64,000 nt of DNA, taken from the IMG/VR virus record IMGVR_UViG_3300025597_000009, positions 36,587-100,586 of that record; one strand, written 5' to 3'. Source of the stretch: a virus. Its lineage: Duplodnaviria > Caudoviricetes. The position numbers and the translations under genes are program-made. Below the pieces are notes generated by a model that was given only the letters and a program-made list of their open reading frames with translations, made no database searches and had not been told where the DNA came from. Positions 4,734 through 28,066 of the stretch are shown piece by piece (the stretch's first letter is position 1; each line of letters starts with the position of its first letter).

Positions 4734-5199
4734 AATTATTAGTAGACAGAATTTTGATAATCCTATTACTATAAATATTCCAATCGAGATTGCTTAGCTT
4801 ACTCATCCTATTACCGGCAAAATTGACAATAGCTGGTTTATGCTCTTGGATATAAGCAATGGCTTCTTCTACTGAAGGATTCTCTAAACAAGGCTTTTGA
4901 CATTGCTTACACAACGTAATAGTTTGTTTACTGCCAGGAGAGTTTAAATTACCAAACACAATAGTTAGATCACTATGTTGGATATTTAGCTTAGTTCTAA
5001 TTGGATAAGATGAAGACTCACACTCTACTAAACCATATGTAGTTCTAAGTAGAAAGTTAGGCCCACGCTCTGTCTTAAAATCTTTAGGAGCATACCCACC
5101 TGTAGTATACCCAAGTTGATGAGCTATATTTAAAGCAGCTTCATCAATACCTGTCTGACCTCCAGAGATCACCTTCTGAACAATATCACTAACTTTCAT
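4717..5199 (-). CDS. SLOG-superfamily 'putative molybdenum carrier' protein
   Basis: KVISGGQTGID.AAL...TGG.AP...RT.LNI..SD.T...NFAGNR signature. Confidence 0.85.
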   Translation of the reverse strand: MKVSDIVQKVISGGQTGIDEAALNIAHQLGYTTGGYAPKDFKTERGPNFLLRTTYGLVECESSSYPIRTKLNIQHSDLTIVFGNLNSPGSKQTITLCKQCQKPCLENPSVEEAIAYIQEHKPAIVNFAGNRMSKLSNLDWNIYSNRIIKILSTNNYENLF

Positions 5200-5345
5200 T
5201 GCTTGTTAAGTTTAGAAATACAAAACAAAAAGCCAGCACCTCACTTGATGCTAGCAATAATCAAACTTGGTTATTATCTTTGTTGAGTTATTGGTGAGCG
5301 ACTTTAAGAACTCATATATAGGGCTATGATTGTCAGTGAGTTAGG

Positions 5346-5373
5346 CCGGGGGTTCGAATCCCTCTCTCTCTGC
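5346..5373 (+). other. attP core candidate: 3' fragment of a Bacteroidota tRNA-Ser-like gene
   Basis: CCGGGGGTTCGAATCCCTCTCTCTCTGC = T-arm + acceptor 3' strand with no 5' half upstream; ~160 bp before the integrase. Confidence 0.75.
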
Positions 5374-5385
5374 TGAAGTAACGAT

Positions 5386-5421
5386 AAAACCCTGTAAACT
5401 AACCACTTACAGGGTTTTTTG
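5386..5421 (+). terminator. Intrinsic terminator after the tRNA fragment
   Basis: AAAACCCTGTAA-loop-TTACAGGGTTTTTT. Confidence 0.8.
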
Positions 5422-5529
5422 TTTTTCAAGAGTGCCAAAAACTGAGAATGTTAGTGAACTATCTGTGAGTTAAAAATAAAATCTGTGAGTTACTCACCAG
5501 TGGCATAACTTTTTAACACTCAGTTTCCT

Positions 5530-8229: not shown

Positions 8230-8337
8230 CCCAGGGAAAAGGAATCGAACCTCTATACAAACTGATTCAGTTAATGAAAGCCTATTATTGGCTTTTATAA
8301 AACCTCAGTTTTGCTCTACCAGTTGAGCTATCCCCGG
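8230..8337 (-). ncRNA. tRNA-like RNA with anticodon loop replaced by a ~35-nt structured insertion
   Basis: Acceptor CCGGGGA/TCCCTGG, D arm GCTCAACTGGTAGAGC, T arm AGAGG TTCGATT CCTTT; AAACTGA/TCAGTTT encloses an extra hairpin AAAGCC/GGCTTT. Confidence 0.75.
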
Positions 8338-13064: not shown

Positions 13065-14378
13065 TTAATCAGCTTTTACACTAAATTCCTGATAAGAACC
13101 ACCAGATCGAATACAAAACTTCTGCATTCCTTCATGATCACCTTCCAGGATAAATCCATGGGTTACCACTTTAGGATACCAGCCTTCTTTAATATGGTCT
13201 TGGCCATCATTGATAATACAAATCTGTGGTCTATCCCCATTAAAGCTAACCTCACCTTCTTTTGTAGGTACACTACCTTTTTTAATAAATTCAATAGTGT
13301 TCTCAATTGCTCGTTGCATGTCAGTACCTCCTCTACCAAATTGGAAATACTTATTAAACTTTTCCCATACATGCAGACATTCTTCTCTAGTCTTGATAAC
13401 TAACCAATGAGGGTCTAGGCGGCTTTCAAATGTGCAAATGTAGAGTTCAGCATTTCCCTGACTTACCTGTTCACACCGATTTAGTAGTAAGGCTTTTACC
13501 CACCCAATTTTATCTGAATCATGCATGGAACCAGAGTCATCAATAAGCAGAATAAGTACTTGCTTATTGAAGCTAATTCTAACCCCCTTTTTGATCTCCA
13601 GTTGCTTGGTAGCCACTTTATAATTAAAGGTGGGCATAGCTAATTGAATAGCTCCAACTTTTTGTACTTCAGAGTATTGCTGTATACGCAACATCCGTGT
13701 CTTCCTGGCACTAGGATCATCTTCTTTGGATTTTGATCTATATGCTTTGATATTTCCTTTCCTGTTTAAAATGGAAAGCTTTTTCAATACATCCAGATTT
13801 TCAGCACCTAGTTGGCCAGCTCGAACACCATTGAATACAGAGGGATCTTGATCCCCTAGTAAAGCTTTCTCAGTGAAACTGTCAGCTGGCATAATTTTAC
13901 CAACCATCTCAGCATTCTCTTTTAGCTTTTTAGCAATATTGGCTCCTGATTGGTTTCCCTGGAATATAGGAAGTTCTTCTTCTTCAGTAGCTCCTCCTTT
14001 ACCTTTACGGCCACCTGCTCCCTGATTAGAAAGAGAATGGGCAATGTTTAAGGCTTGTTCCAGCGGAGTATCCCCATTGAAAACTGATACATCAATGTTC
14101 TTTAAGAATTCCTGAGCTTTCTTATTGAACTCAAACACACGTTCCTCTGCCTTTTCCTGAGTCTCCCCTTCTTTAGGTTCTACATTATCATAGTTCCAGG
14201 TAGAAGGTTTGGTAAAAGCTTTAGCACGTTCATCTTCAGGAAATGAAGTTAGATTGGCAATATCCTGTACTAATTGTACTGAATATGTACCCTGTAAATT
14301 CATTTTCTTCACTACATGCTCAATCTCTTTTTTGGATGGAGTGATGTAGTTTTTGTGGGGTACAGTTCGTTGGATCAT
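13065..14378 (-). CDS. VWA-domain protein (MoxR partner, ViaA-like)
   Basis: MIDAS LIDDSGSM, GGTD, IINDG; directly downstream of AAA ATPase. Confidence 0.85.
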   Translation of the reverse strand: MIQRTVPHKNYITPSKKEIEHVVKKMNLQGTYSVQLVQDIANLTSFPEDERAKAFTKPSTWNYDNVEPKEGETQEKAEERVFEFNKKAQEFLKNIDVSVFNGDTPLEQALNIAHSLSNQGAGGRKGKGGATEEEELPIFQGNQSGANIAKKLKENAEMVGKIMPADSFTEKALLGDQDPSVFNGVRAGQLGAENLDVLKKLSILNRKGNIKAYRSKSKEDDPSARKTRMLRIQQYSEVQKVGAIQLAMPTFNYKVATKQLEIKKGVRISFNKQVLILLIDDSGSMHDSDKIGWVKALLLNRCEQVSQGNAELYICTFESRLDPHWLVIKTREECLHVWEKFNKYFQFGRGGTDMQRAIENTIEFIKKGSVPTKEGEVSFNGDRPQICIINDGQDHIKEGWYPKVVTHGFILEGDHEGMQKFCIRSGGSYQEFSVKAD

Positions 14379-14381
14379 TGA

Positions 14382-15284
14382 TTAGGCTAGTGCTCCTAAG
14401 AAGTTCAAATCAGTATCAGCATTGGTTTTTTCCAAGGCATTATCCAGACAGGTTTTCTGGTATGTTTTCCAGATTTCCCGAAGTTTTTTGTATTGTGGCT
14501 GAAACTCATCTCTGAAGGATTGATCATCCAGAAACTTAATAACTCTCTCAGCTGCTTTACTGTACTGGATGTACCGGATAGGGGTATTCTTATCCACTGG
14601 AGGCAAATCAGAAAGCTGTTTGTGCATAGCATTAAACTTCTCTCTTTCCTGCCGAATAGCTTCAAATTCTTCCATTTGAGACTCAATCTCATTTACATGG
14701 TGAGGATCAAAGCCAGCTACATACTTCAGCCCAGACAAGCCAGCTGTGTTGTACACAATAGCTGCCTTAACAGCTGTTCTTGGAGAAATGAAATTGTTTC
14801 TACTTACTTCAGCCACAATTTGGGCAAACGTATGCATGGGTTTTTTGAGCACTTTATCAAACAGGAGTGCATAATCTTCCTGATTGTAAGTTTCCCATTC
14901 TACCCGGTGCTCTAAAGGAAAACGCTCCATCAAGGCTTTGATAGAATCATCCTCAGCAATTTCTTCCCGGCTTCTGTTGGTACAAACTACAATACACTTG
15001 GTTTTGATGGGTACTTGCTGATTTCCATTTCTGAACTGTTTTGAAGTTAGAATATCCTTGAGCTGTTCTAATACGGCTGTAGGAGCATCCAAACCTTCTT
15101 CCAGTATAACATACTCATGGCTCATGAAACTCCGTTCAATATTATATTCAATGGCACCATGGTCTTGAAATTCTTTCATTTTCAATCCCCCTAACAAGGA
15201 TTCTATTGTTGAGCCCTGGCCAAGTGATTGAATAAACGGCTTTTCATCAATAGCCTTAAAGAATGCTTCACTCATTTCACTTTT
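14382..15284 (-). CDS. MoxR/RavA-like AAA+ ATPase, exon 2
   Basis: Begins KSEMSE (completes Walker A), Walker B VILEE, sensor CTN, Arg finger ALMERF, ISPRT. Confidence 0.85.
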   Translation of the reverse strand, partial: KSEMSEAFFKAIDEKPFIQSLGQGSTIESLLGGLKMKEFQDHGAIEYNIERSFMSHEYVILEEGLDAPTAVLEQLKDILTSKQFRNGNQQVPIKTKCIVVCTNRSREEIAEDDSIKALMERFPLEHRVEWETYNQEDYALLFDKVLKKPMHTFAQIVAEVSRNNFISPRTAVKAAIVYNTAGLSGLKYVAGFDPHHVNEIESQMEEFEAIRQEREKFNAMHKQLSDLPPVDKNTPIRYIQYSKAAERVIKFLDDQSFRDEFQPQYKKLREIWKTYQKTCLDNALEKTNADTDLNFLGALA

Positions 15285-16555
15285 CTAATTGTTATTAACC
15301 ACAGGCTTTTTATCCTGTGCTCTGGAAGTTTCCCTCATTTTCATCAGTTGGTCATTTCCAACTCAGTATAGCATATATTTTCACCTCCAACTCAATGGTA
15401 AGGTGGGGAACACTCGTGGTAGTATTATAGTCTGTTTTACAGGATCAACTACTATGCGTTACACTACCAATAAATCTTTAAGTTATTGGTTAGCTCGGTA
15501 TTAGCACTTCACTTTGAGCCTTCACCGATTTTGCTCCCTCATAATCCAAGATATTTCTATCCTGGACGGCAAATCCAAAATTCTTGAAAAGTTGGTATCT
15601 GTTGTACTTTCTATCTAAATGCAAAGAACTAGTTTCATATAGCTTTTTTAAAATATCAATACTGTCTGGACAACTATAAGAAGTCTCAAAAACAAAGTGG
15701 CTTGCTGTTTCTTCAGAGTTAGCCAATAAGTAATTTCTTTCCCTATAGTTTAAGACCTTGTTAATACCTTGTAAAACATCTTTAGTGCCTAAAAATTTAA
15801 CAATTGGTTTGTATCCACTTGTGGTATGTGTAAATGTAAAGCAACCATCACCATCAAAGTAACCTCTTACAAAAGCTAGTTGATGTTTATTAGGTAGTTG
15901 ATTTTCAGACGGAAATAGTAAAGTTTCAGATTTTTTAGGAGTACATCCTAAACTAATTAGATCTAATCTCATTTGTTTACTATAAAAACAATATCGAGCA
16001 GCTTTCCCATCTTTAGTTAGATAGATTTTATTATCTGCCTTTATAAATTGCTTAAATTTTAACAAATGGTTCATATCACTAATTTTTAATCCTAGTTCAA
16101 TAGCATTTGTAGTCGAATGGATTGCACCATCTGCATACAAAAACCCAAGCCAGTAAGCTTTTTCATCAGTATCAATAGTTGAAAAGAGATTATGTTGAGT
16201 TCCTCTTTCATTTTGTCTATTGATAATCTGTATTCCATTAGCTTTGAGTATTTTAGATATTCTTTCTGGTCTTGTTTTGAACATTTTACCTATTTTTTCC
16301 AAACTGTAACCTTGCTTATAATACTGTATGTATTCTTCAGCTGTACCTAATGTTTGATTTTGTTGATTTAATACACATACCCCCTTACTTCTTAGATACT
16401 TATTAATAATGTAAGGTGAATTCCCAAATTGTTTTACAAGAGAAGCTATACTTCTTTGATTTACAACATACTCATACTCAATTAATTTACCTAACTCCTC
16501 TTCCATATCTACACATATTTAACTATATGTAAATATACGAATTTTAGATGTGTTT
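15285..16555 (-). mobile_element. Group I intron with LAGLIDADG homing endonuclease
   Basis: Exon 1 ends in U (GGT), intron ends in G; splicing restores GKGGHG|KS; core-like elements AAATCGGTGAA, AACGCATAG, AATATATGCT. Confidence 0.88.
15490..16506 (-). CDS. LAGLIDADG homing endonuclease with N-terminal HTH-like repeats
   Basis: YWLGFLYADG and FVRGYFDGDG motifs. Confidence 0.92.
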   Translation of the reverse strand: MEEELGKLIEYEYVVNQRSIASLVKQFGNSPYIINKYLRSKGVCVLNQQNQTLGTAEEYIQYYKQGYSLEKIGKMFKTRPERISKILKANGIQIINRQNERGTQHNLFSTIDTDEKAYWLGFLYADGAIHSTTNAIELGLKISDMNHLLKFKQFIKADNKIYLTKDGKAARYCFYSKQMRLDLISLGCTPKKSETLLFPSENQLPNKHQLAFVRGYFDGDGCFTFTHTTSGYKPIVKFLGTKDVLQGINKVLNYRERNYLLANSEETASHFVFETSYSCPDSIDILKKLYETSSLHLDRKYNRYQLFKNFGFAVQDRNILDYEGAKSVKAQSEVLIPS

Positions 16556-17518: not shown

Positions 17519-18148
17519 TTAGGCAGCTACTTTATACAATGTACCCTGAATCTTGAGTGTTTTGATAGTCTGAAGATTCACCTGCCGAATACAATCATGA
17601 GGTGTTGTTTTCTTCTTACTTAACTCAACCACTTTCACATACCCTAACACATTTGGGTCCTGACCAGACAAGTATTGACCATTAAGCACCCTTTCTTCCC
17701 CTTTCTTTTTCTTAAAGGTTACAGTAAAGAAACGGCCACCAGCATTGCTCATCAGCTCAAAAGCCTTTTTCTTGCCAATTTTTATGACTTTAGAAGGTTG
17801 TTGAACTGGCAGAGCAGGAGTAGCTACAGCATTAGCTGCAATAGCTTGACCAAAAGCAGCTTGTACATCAGGAGTTTGCAAATTTGTCATGGTAATGTTT
17901 GGGTCTGAATAAATTCTGAATACACCTGTATCCTCAAAGGTAAATAGGCCTTGAGCAGTAAATCCTTGCATAAGCTTACTTACCAGTTCCTGAGTCCAAT
18001 TGTATTCTGGGTGATCTTCCCTGAGCTTTAATTTTATCTCCAGGGTGGTTACTCGATTGGTAGCTTTGAGCAGTTGTAAGGCTGCATCTAAACAAAGTTG
18101 ATCTCTTTTACTCATGATTTGAGCCAAATCACTTTTTTTATATGGCAC
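17519..18148 (-). CDS. Protein with wHTH-like N-terminus and WYL_2/SH3-like C-terminal domain
   Basis: FFTVTFKKKKGEERVLNG...IRQVNL.TI pattern. Confidence 0.55.
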   Translation of the reverse strand: MPYKKSDLAQIMSKRDQLCLDAALQLLKATNRVTTLEIKLKLREDHPEYNWTQELVSKLMQGFTAQGLFTFEDTGVFRIYSDPNITMTNLQTPDVQAAFGQAIAANAVATPALPVQQPSKVIKIGKKKAFELMSNAGGRFFTVTFKKKKGEERVLNGQYLSGQDPNVLGYVKVVELSKKKTTPHDCIRQVNLQTIKTLKIQGTLYKVAA

Positions 18149-19320
18149 TGTGACTCATTATAGGCTATGATTTCTGAATTCAATAGCCCATTACCAGCAC
18201 TAACAAAGGTGCTGTCAAATCCACGTTCCTTTAGGTTTTTATAGGTAAGAGCAAATTCATTCCCTCTAAACCATCCCTCATACTTAAAAGGATTTCCCAC
18301 ATGTACTTCATACACCAGGATTACCTTGTCTGAGTCATATCCAGTATAACCCAATGATTTAGCCATTGTCTCACTGAAATAATTCCCATCACCATACGCT
18401 TTACCACTGAACTGAAAATTCCCTGTTGGTCTGATCTTTAAACCCTGTTCCAGAATTGGAAGTACTGAAGTACATCTTGTACCATGAATGAGTGTTCTGG
18501 TCTGTCTGTTCTCTTGGGAACTCATCCACTGGTTAAATGCTTCATCTTCCCTGGTTTTCTTCACAGAAAATACAGCATGTACTTTTCCAGATCGTCCATG
18601 ATAGCCTGAACTGAAATTTTGATCCAGCAAATACTGAATATCAGCATAATCCTCTGTTTCTTCCATTTCAATTCCCAACATATCCAGTAAGGATTGTTGT
18701 AACGTGACCTCTGCTTGGGTTGCTGGCTTTTTGCTAAGCAGTGCAACCTGTGAGGCAATTGCATCCAGATTATCTTGTTCCTGTTCAAAGACTTTGTCTA
18801 GGTTAATATTGGGTAGTAAGTAATCTCCTACTCTGCCCATGTATCTAGGGATCACTGTGTAGATTTCAATCAGCTTTTTGTTAATTGTCAGGGTATCCAG
18901 CCGATTTAAAACACTCAACTCATTGATTAGCTTTTGAGCAGCTTCTAACTGATGTTGAGTTACCTGAGTAGCTTTAACTGAGTAGGTTTTTCTAACCAAA
19001 TTATCCCGATAACTCTGCATGAGCTTTAAAAACTCAGCTACCTTTCTACTAACAGTGTCACCAATAATTGGCTGAGTATCTGTAACAGGATCATCTACTA
19101 CAGTTGTAGCTACTAATTCAGTTACATCTTTGTAACCTTTAGCAATCTTTTCCCTTTTCAGGCTATTCCACTTGCTATAAGGATAAGACTTACTAGTGGA
19201 TGTGCTTTCTACCCTGCCATAATTGACAGTAAAATTAGCTCCACCAGTATAGACCATCTCGTAGAATTTATTATTGTTACCACTGGTTACCATTAGTAAC
19301 TTACAATAATCTTGTTGCAT
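18112..19320 (-). CDS. WGR-domain PARP-like ADP-ribosyltransferase
   Basis: NNNKFYEM...YGRV (WGR); catalytic LIHGT, YGDGNYFS, KSLGY, NSEIIAY (H-Y-E triad). Confidence 0.88.
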   Translation of the reverse strand: MQQDYCKLLMVTSGNNNKFYEMVYTGGANFTVNYGRVESTSTSKSYPYSKWNSLKREKIAKGYKDVTELVATTVVDDPVTDTQPIIGDTVSRKVAEFLKLMQSYRDNLVRKTYSVKATQVTQHQLEAAQKLINELSVLNRLDTLTINKKLIEIYTVIPRYMGRVGDYLLPNINLDKVFEQEQDNLDAIASQVALLSKKPATQAEVTLQQSLLDMLGIEMEETEDYADIQYLLDQNFSSGYHGRSGKVHAVFSVKKTREDEAFNQWMSSQENRQTRTLIHGTRCTSVLPILEQGLKIRPTGNFQFSGKAYGDGNYFSETMAKSLGYTGYDSDKVILVYEVHVGNPFKYEGWFRGNEFALTYKNLKERGFDSTFVSAGNGLLNSEIIAYNESQCHIKKVIWLKS

Positions 19321-19415: not shown

Positions 19416-21644
19416 TTAATCAGCCAGGAGTTGAGTCACTCCAGCTACATCTTTAGCCCAGTCCAGATCATAGACTTCATTGGCCTCAGCTGGCTCACTG
19501 ATAATAGTAAGCCCTTGAGCTAAGGCTTTTATTACTAGTAACTTCTGAATACTGAATTTGGCAGATAGCTTATTGAGCATAGCCTTTACATTGTCCATAC
19601 CACTTTTACCTGCATTACCTGTTTGGGGCATTTCTAGCCAGACAATTTGTTCAGCCTGAAGATCCAGGTAACCAAAAATCAACCCTTGACCTAATTCTGA
19701 TTTAACAGAAATCATCTGCTCTACACAGGAAGGATCAAAAGCAACTCCAGATGCAGTTACTTTCATAGGATTTGTAGAAGCCATCCAACCTACTCTCAGA
19801 TTCATTTCCAGAGCACTCTTATTATAAGCTCTGCAATGGAAGATCACACCAGAGGCCCCATTAGCTTGTAGCTTTTCTACATCCAGGTTAATAAATTCAG
19901 CTGTACCAATCTTATTAGGAATGTGTTGAATATCCCCTGAATGAGTGGCCCCTGTAATGTTAAGGTGACCGAAGTAGCAGATGTCTGTATGATTTGGATA
20001 GACCACATCAGCATACAAATCCATATCTAGGTGTTGAGCTGGTAATCCTTCTCCCCAATTCATAAACAGTCTGACTTGTTTAGATTGTAGTGGGAATCGT
20101 TGTCCTTGCAAGAAATGAGCTAAGTCCTGTACAGTTTCTGATCTGTCTCCAATGCTAAATGGAATGTACTCAAGATCAGGATGAATGTACATGGTTTTGT
20201 TTTCATTAGGAGTAGCAGCAAATCTCTGGAAGATAGCTTCATCTACTAAGGACTCAACTAGTTCCATGTATTGCTTTCTTTCTGTAGCTGACATAACTGC
20301 TACCAATGGATGTGGGTCAATAGTTTTAGTTAATCCAGCTCCTAATGGTTTTACCACTCTAGTTTGACCAGAAAAGTAAACTTTAGCAGCCTGAGTTAAT
20401 GTAACAATGAGCCTCATAGGTAGCTTAGTAAGCACTTCTTTAAACGCATCCATAACTAGGGCAGCATCATACTTCAGCAACAAACTAAATAGCATTCTAG
20501 AAAATACTCCTGGACGTTGTTTTAGTAAGTGCAATCCTAGAGTAAGACTGTGCTCTTTCATGGCCTTGTTGACCAAATGAGCCCAACCTAAACCAGTACC
20601 TTGATTTTGGAAGATATACAGCAGATCCTTTAGTCGCTCAAAACCAGCTTGCTTGGCAAACTCATTCAATCTAGCTGCTCTGATGAACCTAACCCACATT
20701 TCTCTGTGAGGATTCATAGAGTCTAATACTGGCCTGATGCCATCAAATTCATTCATCCACTCAGCAATCTTCCTGGCTTCTGGTCTAGAATACTTTAGTT
20801 TCAGTTGCTCCTTTTTATTGGCAACCTCACTAGTATTCACAGAACTCCGGTATCTACTGTAGCCTCTTCTACTATCTCTTGCTGTTTTGTTGAGAATAGT
20901 CTTAGGCTTAACAATCTGAAGATTACCCGTATGTTTATACCACAGATATCTTAACACATCAGAAGGCAGCTTAAAAAGCTTACTAGCTTCTTTACGTTTA
21001 CCCAAGGCTACCAATTGATCCACCAGGAACATTTTGGTTTCAATCATGCCTACTTCTACCTCTGGTACTGGGTAGATTTCTAGCAAGGTTAACACAGCTT
21101 CTTTCTGTGTACCATCTAAAGGAGTCTTAGACTTCAACAGATTATCAAAGTAGTTCAGTAACTCCCGGTCTCCCCATAGCTTGAGTATTTTCAGCTTAGA
21201 ACCCTGGCCTACTGGAATCTCCATATCAGCCTCAAAAGGAGTACCACAAAAAGGGCAACCATTGTACTTTTCCAGCTCAAACACATTGGCCGGGATAGTG
21301 TGTCCACAAACTAAAGTAGTTCCTGATCCACCAACTAACTGGTTAAACCAGGTAAGCACATGAGCAAACTCACTGTCTTTAGGTGGCACATCCCACTGTT
21401 TGATCAGAGGAGTCCAATTTAATTTGCTGCCTGTAACAGTCCTTACAAAATCCACATACAAATCCTGAAATTCTTCTGTGGTTGTTTTCCAGATAGACAG
21501 GGCTTTTGAGTCCAATGTATAGCCTAGTTCCTTCAATTTAGCTAGGTTTACAAAGGTGGAGACCCAGTTCTGAACACTGGTAATCTCTTGGGCAGGCACA
21601 TAGATAGCACCTTGCCGAATGGCAATTTTGTTGTGTTTTTCCAT
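19416..21644 (-). CDS. Prok-RING_4 + ROT/TROVE-like + TerD-like domain protein
   Basis: CGH.IP...F...YNGCPFCG RING; helical middle with RPG.F.R; C-terminal W...DMDL...HSGDI...AEFI.LD TerD-like domain. Confidence 0.85.
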   Translation of the reverse strand: MEKHNKIAIRQGAIYVPAQEITSVQNWVSTFVNLAKLKELGYTLDSKALSIWKTTTEEFQDLYVDFVRTVTGSKLNWTPLIKQWDVPPKDSEFAHVLTWFNQLVGGSGTTLVCGHTIPANVFELEKYNGCPFCGTPFEADMEIPVGQGSKLKILKLWGDRELLNYFDNLLKSKTPLDGTQKEAVLTLLEIYPVPEVEVGMIETKMFLVDQLVALGKRKEASKLFKLPSDVLRYLWYKHTGNLQIVKPKTILNKTARDSRRGYSRYRSSVNTSEVANKKEQLKLKYSRPEARKIAEWMNEFDGIRPVLDSMNPHREMWVRFIRAARLNEFAKQAGFERLKDLLYIFQNQGTGLGWAHLVNKAMKEHSLTLGLHLLKQRPGVFSRMLFSLLLKYDAALVMDAFKEVLTKLPMRLIVTLTQAAKVYFSGQTRVVKPLGAGLTKTIDPHPLVAVMSATERKQYMELVESLVDEAIFQRFAATPNENKTMYIHPDLEYIPFSIGDRSETVQDLAHFLQGQRFPLQSKQVRLFMNWGEGLPAQHLDMDLYADVVYPNHTDICYFGHLNITGATHSGDIQHIPNKIGTAEFINLDVEKLQANGASGVIFHCRAYNKSALEMNLRVGWMASTNPMKVTASGVAFDPSCVEQMISVKSELGQGLIFGYLDLQAEQIVWLEMPQTGNAGKSGMDNVKAMLNKLSAKFSIQKLLVIKALAQGLTIISEPAEANEVYDLDWAKDVAGVTQLLAD

Positions 21645-21651
21645 AAAAGAG

Positions 21652-21709
21652 AAGGTAATTACAGAGCTATAGGAGCTTTTTTAGTGAGAAGTAAGCTCTG
21701 TTTGACCTT
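21652..21709 (-). ncRNA. Y-RNA-like hairpin in the leader of the RING-TROVE-TerD gene
   Basis: AAGGT-C-AA-ACAGAGCT-TACTTCT...AGCTCTGT-AA-TT-ACCTT, ends 7 nt before ATG. Confidence 0.8.
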
Positions 21710-22337
21710 ATTTATTTTTGATGATTTTAATGGCTTTAATTACCAACTGGATGGTTTCTTTTCTGGCTTCCAAATAACCAGTTCTTATGAATGGTGTAAT
21801 GAGTGTGTGTTTGGGGCTACAATACTGTTCTAACTCAACACTTTCAGGGGCATGTACATGGCCCACTAAAGTACCAACAGTAAAAGAACTACAGATATAG
21901 ACACTCAAGCTAAATTCATGCAAAGCCCACATTACAATCTGATCAAATGTAGGAGCTCTAAACATAACGTTAGAGTCTATACGTGGATTGAATGGAGGTA
22001 AGAGGTCTTCATTACCTAAGTAAATTTCTTTATCCTTCCCAGTATAATAACCCAAAGTAGGCCAGTCAAAACCTAATTTTTTAAACTCCAGTGATTCTTC
22101 ATAAGAAAGAAAGGTCTCTCCCAAAGTTGGAATTGGCTCAAAGGTTTCATTAGCTTCTAAATAAGCCATGATTGTTTCATCACTTGGGCTTTCAGGCAGT
22201 TCTTTATGATAAATCAAGCTATCAATTAGGTTTGCACCATGTTTGACTTTGCTTTCCTTTACTTCTGCAATAATCTGCTCTTGACTTCCATAGTATTTCC
22301 TTACCATGTCCAGCATTTTGAATTGTCTGATCTTCAT
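21708..22337 (-). CDS. Hypothetical protein
   Basis: 209 aa; KKLGFD...APT motif seen in Bacteroidota phage proteins. Confidence 0.65.
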   Translation of the reverse strand: MKIRQFKMLDMVRKYYGSQEQIIAEVKESKVKHGANLIDSLIYHKELPESPSDETIMAYLEANETFEPIPTLGETFLSYEESLEFKKLGFDWPTLGYYTGKDKEIYLGNEDLLPPFNPRIDSNVMFRAPTFDQIVMWALHEFSLSVYICSSFTVGTLVGHVHAPESVELEQYCSPKHTLITPFIRTGYLEARKETIQLVIKAIKIIKNK

Positions 22338-24830: not shown

Positions 24831-25283
24831 TTATGCTTCAAAAATAGATAAATACAGTTTTTCAATCTTCTTGTAAATCCACTCATACACATCCCATAAC
24901 AGCTCACCAAACATCCAGTTGAAGGCTGAAAAGGGCTAGAAAAACCACCATCTAAATACATGATCTTTTAGTATAAAATACTTCTTTTCATCTGGCTTTT
25001 TCTTTAATTCTTGGCCTTTGAAGTATGTCCTAACTAAAGAGAAAATGAAGCCTATACTTAAATAATACAGGATATTTTCCACTGTCAAATAACTGAAAAT
25101 CGGAAAATTACTCCAGTAATAACAGCAAATCACAAAAGCAATCAGAATACCAAATGCAGTAGCTAAACTGTTGTGCTTATCAGCTACTGCCAATAGCAAT
25201 ACTATAGCTACCACTAAGCCAAAAAAGGCAAAAGCACTACCAAACAGGCTAAAAGCCATCCAGGTTTGAAACCAAGTCTCCAT
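24831..25283 (-). pseudogene. Membrane protein gene with an in-frame TAG at 24936-24938
   Basis: ...FRWWFF*PFSAFNWMFG...IFEA* continues 34 codons to TAA next to the following start. Confidence 0.55.
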
Positions 25284-25696
25284 TAATTGAAAAGGTTTAT
25301 TAAAAGTTGCAGAAAATCAATGTGTAAATGATACCTGTTCAGTACAATTAGTAATAGAAGTACTACAGATATATATCCATCAATACTAACAGCAAATCCT
25401 TCTTTTTTAATTTTAAAGATATTCCAAAACAAAATTGACCAGCAGAAAAACACAACAAATAAAAACCATTGACTAGTAAAGAAGCCAATAAACATCCAAC
25501 ACCAATATAAAAATATTAGTCCGGCTATATTTTTATTGGCATTTTGAGCCTTTGTTTTAAGTCGTTCGAGCATAGCTACATGTTTTGCTGGCTCTATTAC
25601 TGCATGAAACTCAAATACTAGAGCTAGACTAGTCCAACCATAAAATAAAAAACTAAGCATGCATGTAAAGGTTAATGACTCCCCAGATAAATTCAC
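25283..25696 (-). CDS. Multi-pass membrane protein
   Basis: Several hydrophobic segments. Confidence 0.65.
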   Translation of the reverse strand: MNLSGESLTFTCMLSFLFYGWTSLALVFEFHAVIEPAKHVAMLERLKTKAQNANKNIAGLIFLYWCWMFIGFFTSQWFLFVVFFCWSILFWNIFKIKKEGFAVSIDGYISVVLLLLIVLNRYHLHIDFLQLLINLFN

Positions 25697-26141
25697 TAAA
25701 GGCTGTATTCAAATGCCAATTAAAAAATATAGCATTAACAGAAATAATACCTTGAAGTAGTATAATACCAAGTGTATTAAATCCTTGCCAATCATTGGTT
25801 AACCACCTGCTATTAAATTGTCTGGCAGTAATAATATTCGAGATGATGAGTACACCTATATTGCTGTGAAACACAACAAGCAACCCTACTAAATTGAAGT
25901 AACGATAGATAGTATCTATACTAGGCAATATCCAAGCTAACCCAAATTCAGTATCATCTAGCAGATTAACAATTCTTTCTGGTAGTAATTTATGTCTTAT
26001 CAAATACGATAAATCATAATAAACCATCACACTGTAAGAAGGGTTAATCAGTAAATAGTAGTACCAAATGACAAATAGTAGGCCTACACTACCATAAATA
26101 ATCTGAAGAGCCCTCCAGAATAGCATAAAGGATTCAAACAT
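25653..26141 (-). CDS. Membrane protein
   Basis: Hydrophobic segments, 162 aa. Confidence 0.55.
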   Translation of the reverse strand: MFESFMLFWRALQIIYGSVGLLFVIWYYYLLINPSYSVMVYYDLSYLIRHKLLPERIVNLLDDTEFGLAWILPSIDTIYRYFNLVGLLVVFHSNIGVLIISNIITARQFNSRWLTNDWQGFNTLGIILLQGIISVNAIFFNWHLNTAFSEFIWGVINLYMHA

Positions 26142-26179
26142 AATAATGCATGGTTTTTAAGTGAACAATAGAAAAAAAA

Positions 26180-26307
26180 TGGCCAGGTAATCGTGATTGT
26201 ATTTCAGTCTTTTGCTCTACCAACTGAGCTATACCAGCGTTAGCTGATACCAGGAATTGAACCTGGGACCCAAAGTTTTTAGAAGTAACATTCACTTGAC
26301 CTGACCA
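26180..26307 (-). ncRNA. Y-RNA (YrlA-like) element enclosing a circularly permuted tRNA
   Basis: Bulged-C terminal helix; inside, T arm CCAGG TTCAATT CCTGG, acceptor TATCAGC-TAAC-GCTGGTA closed by a loop, then D arm GCTCAGTTGGTAGAGC. Confidence 0.88.
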
Positions 26308-26314
26308 ATAAGGA

Positions 26315-26384
26315 AGTCTGGTAATCAATAATGTAATTACCTGTTTCAAAAAGTTTTTAGAAGTAACATTATTTTGACCAGACT
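26315..26384 (-). ncRNA. Y-RNA-like hairpin
   Basis: AGTCTGGT-C-AA-AATAATGT-TACTTCT...ACATTATT-GA-TT-ACCAGACT. Confidence 0.82.
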
Positions 26385-26387
26385 CAG

Positions 26388-26458
26388 TTACCCAGGGAAG
26401 ATTCGAACTCCCACCAAGAGGACCAAAACCTCTTGTGCTACCATTACACCACCGGGTA
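26388..26458 (-). tRNA. tRNA-Gln(TTG)
   Basis: Cloverleaf; AGAGG TTTTGGT CCTCT anticodon arm. Confidence 0.92.
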
Positions 26459-26461
26459 GGG

Positions 26462-26536
26462 TTAATAAAGCAATCATTCAACTATTTTCGTAGTCATCAT
26501 AGAGTTGTAGAAGTAAGTTGAATTTGGCCTTATTAA
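26462..26536 (-). ncRNA. Y-RNA-like hairpin
   Basis: TTAATAAGGC-C-AA-ATTCAACT-TACTTCT...AGTTGAAT-GA-TT-GCTTTATTAA. Confidence 0.82.
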
Positions 26537-26543
26537 TAAGAAA

Positions 26544-26612
26544 ATCAGGTAATCCATACACTAATTTCAGTTTACCAATCTGTTTTTAGAAGTAAGTGTG
26601 TGTTGACCTGAT
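26544..26612 (-). ncRNA. Y-RNA-like hairpin
   Basis: ATCAGGT-C-AA-CACACACT-TACTTCT...AGTGTATG-GA-TT-ACCTGAT. Confidence 0.82.
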
Positions 26613-26616
26613 CTTG

Positions 26617-26689
26617 TGAGACCTACAGGATTTGAACCTGTAACCTTCTCATTAAAAGTGAGAAGCTCTACCAATTGAGCTAAGGCCTC
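26617..26689 (-). tRNA. tRNA-Lys(TTT)
   Basis: Cloverleaf; TCTCA CTTTTAA TGAGA. Confidence 0.92.
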
Positions 26690-26775
26690 AGGAAACTCAT
26701 CTAATTCAAAGAAAAAGATGAGTAAGCATCTTGTATGAGAAAAAAAACTAATCGGGTTTACCAGTTAAATGGTAG

Positions 26776-26849
26776 TAGGAATACCTGGACTTGAACCAGG
26801 GGCCTCAACATTATCAGTGTTGTACTCTAACCAACTGAGCTATATTCCT
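26776..26849 (-). tRNA. tRNA-Ile(GAT)
   Basis: Cloverleaf; CAACA CTGATAA TGTTG. Confidence 0.92.
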
Positions 26850-26918
26850 AGATTTTGTGCATAAATATTCCCCAATACCTATGCACATGTCCTTTTAGTT
26901 AACGTCCATTATAATGGG

Positions 26919-26992
26919 TAGTGGGTGAGAGGCTCGAACTCCCAACTTCCTGCTTAGAAGGCAGGATTTCTATCCAATTGAATTAACCCACC
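26919..26992 (-). tRNA. tRNA-Arg(TCT)
   Basis: Cloverleaf; CCTGC CTTCTAA GCAGG. Confidence 0.92.
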
Positions 26993-27052
26993 AGAAAAAA
27001 AACTCTTATAATTCAAGGTGTATATAAGAGTCTTGTTCACCGTAACTTGAGT

Positions 27053-27137
27053 TTAATCAGGCAATCTACCTGCTAAGTCAAATCCCTATTTTGATGCCTA
27101 TGCAGGCTAGAAGTAAGCTAGGTATTGGCCTGATTAA
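27053..27137 (-). ncRNA. Y-RNA-like hairpin
   Basis: TTAATCAGGC-C-AA-TACCTAGCT-TACTTCT...AGCAGGTA-GA-TT-GCCTGATTAA. Confidence 0.82.
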
Positions 27138-27268
27138 TTCATTGAATAACAACTAATTGGGAGTAATTAGCTGTTTAACTATACTATCGTATCACACGCT
27201 CACCATGCAATACAAAGATAACCTAGTCTGGTTAGGGTTGATGCTCCTAATAACAAGAGTTGGTTAGT

Positions 27269-27466
27269 CTATTTTTCACCAAACCAGCTAACAATAACTG
27301 TACCTACTAATAGTATAAACATCCAGGCTGCCATACCTTCTCTAAATTCAGTTGGCCATTGAGCTAATGTAAATGAACCCACATGAACGCATCCAATCAA
27401 TAGGAGGCAAAGCATTACTAGGATGCCAGCAATAAGGTGTCTTAGCTTGAATATCAAGGTTTTCAT
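27269..27466 (-). CDS. Small membrane protein
   Basis: Two hydrophobic helices. Confidence 0.6.
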   Translation of the reverse strand: MKTLIFKLRHLIAGILVMLCLLLIGCVHVGSFTLAQWPTEFREGMAAWMFILLVGTVIVSWFGEK

Positions 27467-27843
27467 TCTACTTCTACAATTTTATAGTTTGTAAACCAAG
27501 CCTTATATGGCTTATCTTCAGCTAATCTGTCCCAACCCTCTACATAGGGCTTTTTAGGTTCTGCACACAGCTTATCCCATAAAGTTTTATGGGCCACCCC
27601 ATGAGGTTCAAATGGCTGGGCTTCTGGTGGAAGATCCTCTACAAATTGAAAGGGATGAAATAGATCAGTAAATGTGTGTCTCCATTGACTTCCTTCAACT
27701 AGTAGCAAACCATCATCAAAGGTGAGTGTAACATTCTCAATGAGCCCTATATGAAAACTCCATTCAATCTCTGTATTTGAGACTGTTATGGTGTTACCTA
27801 CTACAGTAGCCCACTTATAGTGCTTAGCTATCTTTGTTGCCAT
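27463..27843 (-). CDS. Hypothetical protein
   Basis: 126 aa ORF. Confidence 0.6.
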   Translation of the reverse strand: MATKIAKHYKWATVVGNTITVSNTEIEWSFHIGLIENVTLTFDDGLLLVEGSQWRHTFTDLFHPFQFVEDLPPEAQPFEPHGVAHKTLWDKLCAEPKKPYVEGWDRLAEDKPYKAWFTNYKIVEVE

Positions 27844-28066
27844 ACAATAGGTAGAGAATTAAAACACCTAACAAGACAGCTACAAATAAGGAGCTTAGGC
27901 TGAGTAAAGCAGGAAGAGTTTTCAAAGAGACTCCAATAGTAAAACTAGCTAGGATAAAGACGCATCCAATACCAAACAGAGTTACAGCTATCCATTCAAC
28001 GAACGCCTGTTTAAATTCCACTACTGATGGATGCGTCCTATATGACAACAGCTTTTTTAAGCTCAT
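27824..28066 (-). CDS. Small membrane protein
   Basis: Two hydrophobic helices. Confidence 0.6.
   Translation of the reverse strand: MSLKKLLSYRTHPSVVEFKQAFVEWIAVTLFGIGCVFILASFTIGVSLKTLPALLSLSSLFVAVLLGVLILYLLYGNKDS

What the first reader, a model, noticed from the sequence alone, without database searches (positions are those of the whole stretch)
26180..26307. Circularly permuted tRNA embedded in a Y-RNA-like stem
Seen in sequence: on the minus strand the tRNA 3' half comes first (ACTTT GGGTC CCAGG TTCAATT CCTGG TATCAGC). A TAAC loop then closes the acceptor stem, followed by the 5' half (GCTGGTA TA GCTCAGTTGGTAGAGC A AAAGA CTGAAA). The break lies in the anticodon loop, and the halves resemble tRNA-Phe(GAA). 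Established: this T-acceptor-D order attached to a Ro-binding stem is the architecture of bacterial YrlA RNAs, and true permuted tRNA genes are known from some algae and archaea. Inference: a tRNA mimic, possibly a decoy for tRNA-targeting defence nucleases or a tether for an enzyme. It is less likely a processed tRNA because A31-A39 is mismatched and ACTGAAAT also occurs in the tRNA-less copy at 26544.
Basis: partly seen in the sequence, partly recalled or inferred. Interest (0 to 1): 0.85.

Follow-up and report, generated by a model that had tools for sequence, protein, structure and literature searches.

The report
Phage Y-like RNA with permuted tRNA
A phage small RNA really does carry a complete tRNA-Phe-like body in rearranged order inside a conserved protein-binding "handle"; it belongs to an undescribed RNA family that always accompanies one uncharacterised protein in Bacteroidota and some phages, a likely counterpart of the Ro60/Y-RNA particle.

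Summary
Observation confirmed. Minus strand 26181-26306 reads outer stem, bulged C, second stem, UACUUC, T arm, 7-bp acceptor closed by UAAC, D arm, CUGAAAU, then the closing strands. Joined in normal order, the halves are called tRNA-Phe(GAA).

It is one of six copies of a "handle" RNA in the window. Five lack the tRNA body. Four tRNA genes are interleaved with them. One copy is the leader of a 742-aa gene.

My covariance model of the handle finds 284 copies in 80 Bacteroidota loci. All lie upstream of, and on the strand of, homologs of that gene, and RtcB is nearby in 32 of 80. Bacterial arrays hold the same chimera in normal tRNA order with the handle closed, a circular permutation of the phage form. 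Rhodococcus phage Weasels2 has the permuted form beside a distant homolog.

The protein has a TerD C-terminus. Ro60 chains are the best structural matches of its helical domain, at moderate Z, without sequence homology. Rfam YrlA matches only the tRNA part, below threshold.

Verdict: a YrlA-like tRNA mimic in a new Ro/Y-like system. Its function is inferred, not shown. The scan met this kind of system before on other DNA (e1-5468357).

The parts
26181..26306 (-). The finding itself ('copy C'): a handle RNA with a complete permuted tRNA-Phe-like body in its apical loop, 126 nt.
   Evidence: Sequence. Fold z -4.2. R1 46.9 bits, with a 71-nt insert in the loop. YrlA 32.5 bits. ARAGORN calls the rejoined halves tRNA-Phe(GAA).
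26282..26306 (-). Handle, 5' strand: outer stem GGUCAGGU, bulged C, AA, stem 2 GUGAAUGU, then the invariant UACUUC.
   Evidence: R1 alignment. GGUCAA and UACUUC are invariant in 34 and 127 distinct copies.
26250..26266 (-). T arm: 5-bp stem with loop UUCAAUU.
   Evidence: YrlA CM alignment; MFE fold.
26232..26249 (-). Acceptor stem of 7 bp, closed by the loop UAAC.
   Evidence: ARAGORN drawing after rejoining.
26214..26229 (-). D arm: GCUC / AGUUGGUA / GAGC.
26201..26207 (-). CUGAAAU: anticodon-loop-like strand (GAA) lying in the internal loop next to stem 2.
   Evidence: The same ACUGAAAU occurs in the tRNA-less copy at 26543-26613.
26181..26200 (-). Handle, 3' strand: stem 2 strand ACAAUCAC, GA bulge, UU, ACCUGGCC.
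   Evidence: R1 alignment.
26171..26180 (-). A followed by U8 directly after the outer stem. Likely end of the RNA array: the outer stem plus U run may act as a terminator.
   Evidence: Sequence only. The terminator scan did not list it because its loop limit is 8 nt. This is inference.
26315..26384 (-). Handle RNA copy B, no tRNA body.
   Evidence: R1 64.3 bits.
26464..26534 (-). Handle RNA copy E. It has GGC:GCU in place of GGU:ACC, a compensated change.
   Evidence: R1 58.7 bits.
26543..26613 (-). Handle RNA copy A, with UUGGUA and ACUGAAAU in its loop.
   Evidence: R1 61.6 bits.
27055..27135 (-). Handle RNA copy F, first in the array. Its loop carries a GCCUGCAUAGGC hairpin like a bacterial subclass.
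   Evidence: R1 48.8 bits; compare the rows.
21649..21712 (-). Handle RNA copy D, the leader of the 742-aa gene. It ends about 7 nt before the ATG.
   Evidence: R1 52.3 bits; sequence. A leader copy is present in nearly every bacterial locus.
19416..21644 (-). Gene of the presumed protein partner, 742 aa. It has an N-terminal domain with a CxH...CPxC Zn ribbon, a helical domain (about residues 159-477) and a TerD beta-sandwich (about 516-690).
26387..26993 (-). Four tRNA genes interleaved with the handle RNAs, with spacers of a few nt: Arg-UCU 26915-26993, Ile-GAU 26775-26849, Lys-UUU 26616-26689, Gln-UUG 26387-26458.
   Evidence: ARAGORN; Rfam tRNA.
27213..27220 (-). TATCTTTG, a match to the Bacteroidota -7 promoter element TAnnTTTG, about 80 nt upstream of the first copy. 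Candidate promoter of the array.
   Evidence: Sequence. The consensus is from my own knowledge and was not tested.

Best explanation
The element is a stable non-coding RNA of about 126 nt. It is the tRNA-mimicking member of a six-copy family of 'handle' RNAs encoded by this phage.

The handle consists of an outer stem ending in GGU:ACC, a bulged C, AA:UU, a 2-nt purine bulge, an 8-bp second stem and the invariant UACUUC. It is most likely the binding site of the phage's 742-aa Zn-ribbon / helical / TerD protein. That gene carries one copy as its own leader.

In copy C the apical loop of the handle is replaced by a complete L-shaped tRNA-Phe-like body. It is attached through its anticodon stem, and its acceptor end is closed by a tetraloop. 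The RNA therefore joins a protein handle to a tRNA shape, as YrlA does for Ro60/Rsr.

The array is probably transcribed together with the four interleaved tRNAs and cut out by RNase P and RNase Z.

The likely role is in tRNA/RNA damage surveillance or repair during infection. The tRNA body either brings the protein to tRNA-recognising enzymes or nucleases, or it stands in for a tRNA as a decoy or sensor. It displays anticodon-loop nucleotides CUGAAA beside the bound protein.

Shown here: the structure, family membership, covariation, the strict genomic linkage to the protein gene, both circular permutations, recurrence in an unrelated cultured phage, and the RtcB neighbourhood.

Inferred: RNA-protein binding, processing, and the biological role.
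For: Structure and tRNA likeness:
-.

Family:
- Exactly six R1 hits in the window, all on one strand.
- The target copy was not used to build R1 and scores 46.9 bits.

Handle structure, on 34 copies from the phage and 19 bacterial loci:
- 94.3% of cells are paired, against 68.2% in shuffles.
- 13 of 18 pairs show double changes.
- The covariation score is 0.661, against 0.171 in shuffles (0 of 500 reach it) and at most 0.17 when partners are slid.

Linkage to the protein gene:
- 284 R1 hits at E <= 1e-3 in 80 Bacteroidota loci (896 kb, both strands). All are on the gene's strand and upstream of the gene.
- The plain motif gives 367 hits on the plus strand and 3 on the minus strand.

Permutation:
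- Bacterial arrays hold tRNA-like genes in normal order whose anticodon region carries the same handle with its outer stem closed by a loop. There are 68 regex cases, and ARAGORN finds 104 'intron'-bearing tRNA-like genes among 116, all on the gene strand.
- The rotated phage copy aligns colinearly with two of them, scoring 75.5 and 58, against shuffled means of 27.5 and 26.

Independent recurrence:
- In Rhodococcus phage Weasels2 a 26%-identical homolog follows a tRNA cluster and lies 3 kb from RtcB.
- It is followed by four hairpins with UACUUC after stem 2.
- One of these has a T arm, a closed 8-bp acceptor and a D arm.

RNA-repair context:
- RtcB lies within 5 kb in 32 of 80 loci, and a WYL regulator in 46 of 80.
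- An Rnl2-type ligase is adjacent in Tenacibaculum.
- The phage fragment encodes an RNA ligase, PF09414, and a short LeuRS.

Protein:
Against: - No RNA or binding data exist.
- The C-terminal domain is TerD, not Ro60's vWA.
- The bulged-C helix that looks like a Y-RNA Ro site is specific to the Bacteroidota clade. The actinophage handle has a symmetric internal loop instead, so the resemblance to GGUCCGA may be coincidental.
- A second, complete phage genome has one handle copy and no such protein.
- RtcB is absent from the flanks of 48 of 80 loci, and no RtcB was found in this phage fragment.
- The elements selected for the covariation alignment were pre-filtered for pairing, which inflates the paired percentage though not the variety of pair types.
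Confidence: 0.6

Rival explanations
1. It is a true circularly permuted tRNA-Phe gene. The handle acts like a split intron at the canonical 37/38 position. The two ends are cut next to the handle and joined by an RNA ligase (RtcB in bacteria, the phage's own ligase here). RNase P and RNase Z then open the UAAC loop. The product is a working tRNA-Phe(GAA).
For: - ARAGORN calls the rejoined halves tRNA-Phe(GAA), with a 7-bp acceptor and all tertiary nucleotides in place.
- The handle sits just after CUGAAA, which corresponds to positions 32-37.
- In Tenacibaculum the normal-order version keeps an anticodon stem and reads CUUUUA before the handle.
- RNA ligases lie near the system.
- No ordinary tRNA-Phe is found in the 100-kb fragment.
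Against: - A31/A39 is mismatched, and the discriminator is U rather than the usual A of tRNA-Phe.
- The handle is not a bulge-helix-bulge motif. It has a 1-nt bulge, 2 bp and a 2-nt bulge.
- Five of six phage copies and most bacterial copies have no tRNA body, so excision would leave nothing.
- In the Flavobacterium normal-order versions stem 2 directly replaces the anticodon stem, so no anticodon arm could be restored.
- No endonuclease is evident.
- M. smegmatis YrlA shows that a 7-bp acceptor in such an RNA leads to RNase P nicking without making a tRNA (PMC4201824).
Confidence: 0.1
2. The handle copies are only cis-acting sites: operators for autoregulation of the 742-aa gene, processing or stability hairpins, and a terminator for the tRNA operon. 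The tRNA body in copy C is then a recombination by-product without a function of its own.
For: - One copy is the leader of the gene in the phage and in nearly all bacterial loci.
- The outer stem of copy C is followed by a U8 run.
- The copies abut the tRNA genes.
Against: - The tRNA body keeps every tertiary-interaction nucleotide and a perfect acceptor helix.
- tRNA chimeras recur in about 100 bacterial arrays and in both permutations.
- The permuted form recurs in an actinophage with a diverged handle.
- Arrays of 2-9 copies with distinct, conserved loop subclasses are more than an operator needs.
Confidence: 0.1
3. It is an ordinary YrlA that binds a canonical Ro60/Rsr. That protein would be supplied by the host or encoded in the missing part of the phage genome, which CheckV rates 43% complete.
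For: - A partial YrlA hit.
- GGUCAAG resembles GGUCCGA and GNCGAAN0-1G (PMC4201824).
- Ro60-carrying phages with YrlA are known (PMC4201824; PMC7824862).
- More than half of the genome is unseen.
Against: - The score is 32.5 bits against the gathering score of 69, and the Rsr-binding ends of the model do not align.
- The handle is invariably linked to the TerD-protein gene, not to TROVE genes.
- F. johnsoniae, a Chitinophaga and Taibaiella carry the system without any TROVE match; Dysgonomonas has only a weak one with stop codons.
- The flanks of the two TROVE genes of Raineya have no convincing R1 hit; the best is 16 bits.
Confidence: 0.07
4. It is an assembly artefact: a mis-joined normal tRNA-Phe gene.
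For: The contig is a metagenomic assembly, and reads could not be checked.
Against: - The two handle strands flanking the halves are exactly complementary and match a family model at 46.9 bits.
- The acceptor strands are joined by a clean tetraloop.
- The same architecture occurs in the finished genome of an isolated phage.
Confidence: 0.01

Closest known systems
YrlA RNAs of bacteria and mycobacteriophages, bound by Ro60/Rsr (Rfam RF02553; PMC4201824; bioRxiv 10.1101/312249). M. smegmatis YrlA is the closest single example.
   Same: - The order is closing stem, T arm, closed acceptor-like stem-loop, D arm, closing stem; in effect a circularly permuted tRNA.
- tRNA tertiary nucleotides are conserved.
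- Shorter sister RNAs without the tRNA body lie in the same locus, like YrlB.
- It is encoded on the same strand as its presumed protein partner, near RNA ligase genes.
- The acceptor stem has 7 bp, as in M. smegmatis YrlA, which RNase P nicks.
   Different: - It scores below the Rfam threshold, and only the tRNA part aligns.
- The closing stem is a different, strongly conserved handle (GGUCAA, UACUUC, AAUUACC) in place of GNCGAAN0-1G.
- The linked protein has no detectable TROVE sequence and carries TerD in place of vWA, plus an N-terminal Zn ribbon.
- There are six copies interleaved with tRNA genes.
- Relatives exist in the opposite circular permutation.
Ro60 / Rsr ribonucleoprotein and the Salmonella rsr-yrlBA-rtcBA operon.
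   Same: - The layout is regulator, small-RNA genes, RNA-binding protein gene, RtcB (F. johnsoniae).
- The best structural matches of the helical domain are Ro60 chains.
   Different: - The regulator is a WYL protein rather than RtcR.
- No sequence homology is detectable.
- The C-terminus has the TerD fold.
- Canonical Ro60 coexists with the system in Raineya and is absent from three of the four other genomes checked, with only a weak match with stop codons in the fourth.
Permuted tRNA genes of Cyanidioschyzon merolae and some archaea (from my own knowledge).
   Same: The 3' half precedes the 5' half in the gene, and the break lies in the anticodon-loop region.
   Different: - Those use a bulge-helix-bulge motif, the splicing endonuclease and a circular intermediate to make working tRNAs.
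- Here the ends form a conserved protein-type handle that is shared with tRNA-less RNAs.
Two-piece (circularly permuted) tmRNA genes of alpha-proteobacteria and cyanobacteria (from my own knowledge).
   Same: They are a precedent for one tRNA-like ribonucleoprotein RNA existing in both gene orders in different lineages.
   Different: The RNA, the partner (SmpB) and the function are all different.
NCBIfam NF041916, the MXAN_6230/SCO0854 family of RING-domain proteins (protein partner only).
   Same: The 742-aa protein matches it over residues 10-695 at E 2e-32, and it is a structural neighbour in the ESM Atlas.
   Different: - The score is far below the family cut-off: 112 bits against 600.
- No function is recorded for that family, and no paper on it was found in the held library.

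Membership tests
Rfam YrlA (RF02553) | Covariance-model score at or above the gathering score of 69 bits. | tested here: not met
   32.5 bits, matching model positions 23-88 of 114 only. No hit at the gathering threshold.
Rfam YrlA (RF02553) | T arm, closed acceptor-like stem-loop and D arm in that order, with tRNA-type T and D loops. | tested here: met
   CM alignment, MFE fold, ARAGORN after rejoining.
Rfam YrlA (RF02553) | GNCGAAN0-1G motif near the 5' end, the presumed Rsr contact (PMC4201824). | tested here: not met
   The 5' strand reads GGUCAAG. It lacks the G between C and AA. This variant is invariant in 34 aligned copies.
Rfam YrlA (RF02553) | Encoded within a few kb of, and on the same strand as, a Ro60/TROVE gene. 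| tested here: not met
   No PF05731 match in the 100.6-kb record. The record is only 43% complete, so absence from the whole phage is not shown.
Rfam YrlA (RF02553) | Bound by Rsr; modified by TruB and DusA. | not testable with these tools
   Needs experiments.
Handle RNA family defined here (model R1) | Significant score to a model built without the sequence. | tested here: met
   46.9 bits, E 5e-10, over the full model length with a 71-nt loop insertion.
Handle RNA family defined here (model R1) | Invariant GG(U/C)CAA, UACUUC and AUU(A/G)(C/U)C, around two covarying stems. | tested here: met
   Copy C carries all three.
Handle RNA family defined here (model R1) | Same strand as, and upstream of, a gene of the Zn-ribbon / helical / TerD protein family. 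| tested here: met
   The gene lies at 19416-21644 (-), 4.5 kb downstream on the same strand. 284 of 284 bacterial hits obey the rule.
Permuted tRNA genes (functional tRNA after processing) | Bulge-helix-bulge motif formed by the transcript ends. | tested here: not met
   By direct reading the ends form 8 bp, a 1-nt bulge, 2 bp, a 2-nt bulge and 8 bp.
Permuted tRNA genes (functional tRNA after processing) | The rejoined sequence is a credible tRNA. | tested here: inconclusive
   ARAGORN calls it tRNA-Phe(GAA). Against this, A31/A39 is mismatched and the discriminator is U.
Ro60 / TROVE proteins (for the 742-aa partner) | TROVE sequence signature (Pfam PF05731). | tested here: not met
   No hit for any of 21 family members at E <= 1. 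hhalign probability is 0.1-0.2 against TROVE proteins.
Ro60 / TROVE proteins (for the 742-aa partner) | Helical-repeat ring fold. | tested here: inconclusive
Ro60 / TROVE proteins (for the 742-aa partner) | C-terminal vWA domain with a MIDAS site. | tested here: not met

The most novel reading that the evidence does not exclude
The handle RNAs and the Zn-ribbon / ring-like / TerD protein form a previously undescribed Ro-like particle. It is widespread in Bacteroidota, with relatives in Actinomycetota and in phages.

Its RNAs are tRNA bodies fused at the anticodon loop to a protein handle, in either circular permutation. The particle would act as bait or sensor for anticodon-loop nucleases and feed RtcB or Rnl repair. 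Phages would carry their own copy, next to spare tRNAs, as counter-defence.

A bolder variant is that the handle is a protein-guided intron-like element. Its excision and ligation by RtcB would turn these chimeras, including the permuted phage gene, into working tRNAs on demand.
Probability: 0.2. Interest if true: 0.9.

Novelty: new variant of a known kind. Interest (0 to 1): 0.75.

Why it matters
Y RNAs and Ro60 are conserved from bacteria to humans, yet what the tRNA-like part of bacterial Y RNAs does is still unknown.

This locus shows a second lineage of tRNA-mimicking RNAs.
- The handle is unrelated to YrlA's at the sequence level.
- The partner protein is different, with no detectable sequence similarity to Ro60.
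- The genomic setting is the same as for YrlA: small-RNA array, RNA-binding protein and RNA ligase.

The same chimera exists in both circular permutations. That argues that the three-dimensional combination of a tRNA elbow and a protein handle is what selection keeps.

The system occurs in tractable organisms, Flavobacterium johnsoniae and the isolated Rhodococcus phage Weasels2. Binding, processing and a role in tRNA damage or phage counter-defence can therefore be tested directly.

It also warns annotators that many "intron-containing" or pseudo-tRNA calls upstream of this gene family are parts of such RNAs.

Tried and rejected
- **Public reads:** The look-up of sequencing runs on the F. johnsoniae CI04 array found only small shares in RNA runs.
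- **Relatives of the window in phage records:** megablast of 25000-28000 found none.
- **Exact T-arm/acceptor pattern in viral contigs:** none found.
- **Relatives of the 742-aa protein in viral contigs:** none found, by single sequence or by alignment.
- **14-base handle pattern in viral contigs:** the scan returned 120 or more stretches. Of the 80 fetched, 79 were chance by the model and only L162 was real.
- **Ro60 homology by sequence:**
  - Pfam TROVE gave no hit.
  - PDB sequence searches gave nothing.
  - hhalign against one TROVE protein and against an 18-sequence TROVE alignment gave probabilities 0.1 and 0.2.
  - Foldseek on both models found no Ro60.
- **My idea that IGDRS(E/D)(T/S/N) is a vWA MIDAS motif:** dropped, because the domain has the TerD fold.
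- **The vWA protein at 13065-14378 as a divergent Ro60:** dropped. It sits next to an AAA ATPase, like a MoxR/vWA pair, and has no PDB or TROVE match.
- **First partner-search script for the outer stem:** too permissive, 256 found against about 175 in controls, and discarded.
- **First regex for the T-acceptor-D order:** it had a wrong D-arm pattern and was redone.
- **Tools and papers not available:**
  - The ESM-Atlas fold library was not available.
  - The Burroughs and Aravind 2016 survey of RNA repair systems is not in the held library. I could not check whether it mentions this protein family.
  - A text search for SCO0854, MXAN_6230 and Prok-RING_4 found nothing relevant.
- **Rfam coverage of the handle:** Rfam at permissive thresholds has no family covering the handle in the window or in four bacterial loci.
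Full report
**1. What is at the coordinates**

The window is part of a 100.6-kb IMG/VR virus record. It has 36% G+C and CheckV rates it 43% complete.

On the minus strand, 26306 to 26181 reads in this order:
- an 8-nt outer-stem strand, a bulged C and AA;
- an 8-nt second-stem strand, then UACUUC and an A-rich stretch;
- CUUU, GGGUC, and a T arm with loop UUCAAUU;
- a 7-nt acceptor 3' strand, the loop UAAC, and the acceptor 5' strand;
- UA, a D arm with loop AGUUGGUA, A, AAAG(A) and CUGAAAU;
- the partners of the second stem, a GA bulge, UU, and the partner of the outer stem.

A U8 run follows directly.

The minimum-energy fold contains every one of these helices. Its energy is -43.8 kcal/mol, z -4.2, and none of 200 shuffles folds as well. 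ARAGORN and Rfam's tRNA model do not see it as a tRNA in the genome. When the two halves are rejoined in a script, ARAGORN calls tRNA-Phe(GAA) with a normal cloverleaf apart from an A/A pair at 31/39.

**2. Relation to YrlA**

At a permissive threshold Rfam's YrlA model matches 26207-26274 with 32.5 bits, E 7.7e-5 for a 1.4-kb search. The match covers model positions 23-88 of 114, which are the T arm, the closed acceptor-like hairpin and the D arm.

The family's gathering score is 69. The parts of the model that hold the Rsr-binding ends do not align.

[quoted passage not shown] It also reports that M. smegmatis YrlA, with a 7-bp acceptor stem, is nicked by RNase P and receives CCA (PMC4201824; bioRxiv 10.1101/312249).

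The phage RNA therefore works like a YrlA in architecture. It fails the sequence-based membership tests.

**3. It is one of six copies of a handle RNA**

The stem around the tRNA body recurs. I found three further copies by eye and by motif search.

I aligned five tRNA-less phage copies with 29 bacterial ones (see section 4). The alignment shows these features:
- invariant GG(U/C)CAA;
- invariant UACUUC directly after an 8-bp second stem;
- AUU(A/G)(C/U)C on the 3' side.

On this alignment the proposed structure is paired in 94.3% of cells, against 68.2% in shuffles. Thirteen of 18 pairs show changes on both sides. The covariation score is 0.661, against 0.171 in shuffles (0 of 500 reach it) and at most 0.17 when partners are slid by 1-3 columns. 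One caveat: I had picked the elements with a pairing filter, which inflates the paired percentage but not the diversity of pair types.

The covariance model R1 built from this alignment finds exactly six strong hits in the 64-kb window, all on the minus strand. The tRNA-bearing copy, which was not in the training set, scores 46.9 bits (E 5e-10) with a 71-nt insertion in the loop.

Five copies are packed with four tRNA genes (Arg, Ile, Lys, Gln), with spacers of a few nucleotides. The array begins about 80 nt after a TATCTTTG element and ends with the U8 run after copy C. The sixth copy fills the gap before the 742-aa ORF at 19416-21644 and ends about 7 nt before its ATG.

**4. The handle is the signature of a protein family**

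The 742-aa protein has more than 3,000 homologs of about 45% identity in Flavobacterium and other Bacteroidota. They are annotated as hypothetical or "prokaryotic RING finger family 4". A scan of one genome per species found relatives in 411 stretches.

In 80 fetched loci R1 gives 284 hits at E <= 1e-3. Every one is on the gene's strand and upstream of the gene. Nearly every locus has a leader copy just before the start codon. A plain regular expression gives 367 hits on the gene strand, 363 of them within 1.5 kb upstream, and 3 on the other strand.

Rfam has no family that covers these elements.

The neighbourhood resembles the Salmonella rsr-yrlBA-rtcBA operon:
- In F. johnsoniae the order is a divergent WYL regulator, the RNA array, the gene, a 177-aa ORF and RtcB.
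- In Tenacibaculum an Rnl2-type ligase lies upstream.
- Over the 80 loci RtcB is within 5 kb in 32, and the WYL regulator in 46.

**5. Both circular permutations exist**

The bacterial arrays contain many tRNA-like genes that ARAGORN can call only with an "intron": 104 of 116 calls, all on the gene strand.

Reading them shows the same chimera as in the phage, in normal tRNA order:
- acceptor 5' strand and D arm;
- in some cases an anticodon-stem strand and an anticodon-loop-like stretch;
- stem-2 partner, then AUUA(U/C)C;
- a short closing loop;
- (A)GGUCAA, stem 2 and UACUUC;
- variable region, T arm and acceptor 3' strand.

My script found 68 such cases.

After rotating the phage RNA at the acceptor loop, it aligns colinearly with the Tenacibaculum and F. 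johnsoniae versions. The scores are 75.5 and 58, against 27.5 +/- 5.4 and 26.2 +/- 5.5 for shuffles, and 47.5 and 34 for the unrotated RNA.

Other bacterial copies with open outer stems carry only a T arm, with or without a short closed hairpin and a GG-containing strand. Among the 80 bacterial loci none has the full permuted body inside the R1 handle. The closest is Tenacibaculum L003 3625-3721, with a T arm, a 6-bp closed hairpin and a weak D-like arm.

**6. Independent recurrence of the permuted form**

Among isolated phages the protein has only distant relatives.

In Rhodococcus phage Weasels2 the 26%-identical gene follows a cluster of five annotated tRNA genes and lies 3 kb from an annotated RtcB. 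The 390-nt gap after it holds four hairpins. Their second stem is again followed by UACUUC. The third hairpin carries a T arm, an 8-bp acceptor closed by AUAU and a D arm. Supporting scores:
- fold z -3.4;
- YrlA 26.4 bits;
- R1 up to 22 bits for the neighbouring hairpins.

Its acceptor 5' strand plus D arm differs from the window's at 2 of 26 positions.

There the handle's internal loop is symmetric rather than a bulged C. The Y-RNA-like bulged-C helix is therefore a feature of the Bacteroidota clade, while stem, loop, stem and UACUUC are general.

An earlier follow-up in this scan (e1-5468357) reported the same kind of RNA plus helical/TerD protein pair in a giant phage and about 150 loci. 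My results agree with it and were obtained independently on this window.

A second metagenomic phage, complete at 103.85 kb, has a single R1 copy and no homolog of the protein.

**7. The protein**

Sequence methods give only three things:
- a weak Zn-ribbon/RING match;
- a sub-threshold match to NCBIfam NF041916, the MXAN_6230/SCO0854 RING family;
- the same neighbours in the ESM Atlas.

The helical domain modelled alone has pLDDT 85.5. I compared it with 48,161 representative chains:

|---|---|---|---|---|---|
| 9l5y_B | Ro60 of Thermus phage phiLo | 1 | 8.5 | 5.7 | 239 |
| 2nvo_A | D. radiodurans Rsr | 3 | 7.2 | 5.6 | 254 |
| 1yvp_A | Xenopus Ro60 with RNA | 5 | 6.9 | 7.2 | 255 |

Each alignment spans the whole domain, colinear with the Ro60 ring. 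The other rows mostly cover about 100 residues; a few span more, at rmsd of about 17-22.

I therefore call the Ro60 likeness suggestive, not shown.

Canonical TROVE genes were found in only one of five genomes that carry the system, Raineya, which has two. Three had no match, and Dysgonomonas had only a weak one below Pfam's cut-off with stop codons. The flanks of the Raineya TROVE genes have no convincing R1 hit.

**8. Most likely mechanism and its limits**

What the data show is a conserved structured RNA with two modules.
- One module is a handle that is genomically inseparable from one protein family.
- The other is a tRNA body attached through its anticodon stem.

Nature keeps this combination in either gene order and in phages of two bacterial phyla, in RNA-ligase and tRNA-gene neighbourhoods.

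The simplest reading is a ribonucleoprotein in which the protein binds the handle and also its own leader, which suggests autoregulation. The tRNA body would confer recognition by tRNA-specific factors, or mimic a tRNA target. Anticodon-loop nucleotides (CUGAAA here, CUUUUA in Tenacibaculum) are displayed next to the bound protein.

In a phage that also carries spare tRNAs for Lys-UUU, Gln-UUG, Arg-UCU and Tyr-GUA, an RNA ligase and a short LeuRS, a role in coping with tRNA-directed host nucleases is plausible. It is pure inference.

The rivals are set out with their evidence in the Rival explanations section. They are a genuinely processed permuted tRNA-Phe, cis-acting sites only, an ordinary YrlA for a canonical Ro60, and an assembly artefact.

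**9. Novelty**

Permuted-tRNA Y RNAs are known, also in phages.

New here are:
- the handle family, which is absent from Rfam;
- its exclusive link to a TerD-containing protein without detectable TROVE sequence;
- the coexistence of both circular permutations;
- the tRNA-interleaved array in a phage.

I rate it a new variant of a known kind. Interest is high because the parts are sharply defined and testable in cultured systems.

Noticed in passing
window 8230-8337 (-): Rfam tRNA hit of 43.6 bits with a 43-nt insertion in the anticodon region. Its D arm and anticodon-stem 5' strand resemble those of copy C, and CUGAAUC lies just before the 3' stem strand. It has no GGUCAA/UACUUC handle. ARAGORN does not call it. 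It may be another tRNA-like RNA or an unusual insertion-bearing tRNA-Phe.
   Followed up: partly
window 18112-19320 (-): A 402-aa protein with a WGR domain and a PARP catalytic domain (Pfam E 1.4e-17; PHROG 23333 E 9e-74). It lies directly downstream of the 742-aa gene on the same strand.
   Followed up: no
window 13065-15275 (-): An adjacent AAA-type ATPase (297 aa) and a vWA-domain protein (437 aa), like a MoxR/vWA pair. I considered the vWA protein as a divergent Ro60 and rejected the idea.
   Followed up: partly
L212 (Rhodococcus phage Weasels2, NC_041887) 5107-5496: Four handle-like hairpins with UACUUC, one of them a permuted tRNA. They lie in an unannotated gap after hypothetical gene gp266, with a tRNA cluster upstream and RtcB 3 kb downstream. 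This is a cultured system for testing.
   Followed up: partly
L056 7620-7728 and L067 2013-2083: YrlA model hits of 39.1 bits (full model length) and 38.6 bits, near the TerD-protein gene in Taibaiella koreensis and in Flavobacterium sp. ALJ2. Both share GAUUGUUUUC near the 5' end and carry a second T-arm-like hairpin. The Taibaiella genome has no TROVE match.
   Followed up: partly
L162 4427-4496 (-) (IMGVR_UViG_3300045988_027877, 103.85 kb, terminal repeats): A complete phage genome with a single handle copy (45.9 bits), just upstream of an ORF that looks like a sigma factor by eye. It has no homolog of the 742-aa protein and no tRNA in the 10-kb locus.
   Followed up: partly
L003 2400-3300 (Tenacibaculum): Three repeat units of about 320 nt inside the RNA array. 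Each has the palindrome TTGCGCAGAAAGAATGCGCAA, a long purine-rich stretch, a hairpin and a handle RNA. The palindrome may be an operator for the locus regulator. F. johnsoniae has similar CTGCGCAAAATAATTGCGTAG repeats (L001 7380-7490).
   Followed up: no
G000:C1 3740-5131 (-) and 8626-10206 (-) (L210): Outside the window, the phage fragment encodes a 463-aa protein with an RNA ligase domain (PF09414, 32.7 bits). It also encodes a 526-aa class I tRNA synthetase with a LeuRS editing-domain match, which is much shorter than bacterial LeuRS.
   Followed up: partly
window 15490-16506 (-): A 338-aa ORF with a weak LAGLIDADG match (E 9e-5). It may be a homing endonuclease within the same gene block.
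   Followed up: no
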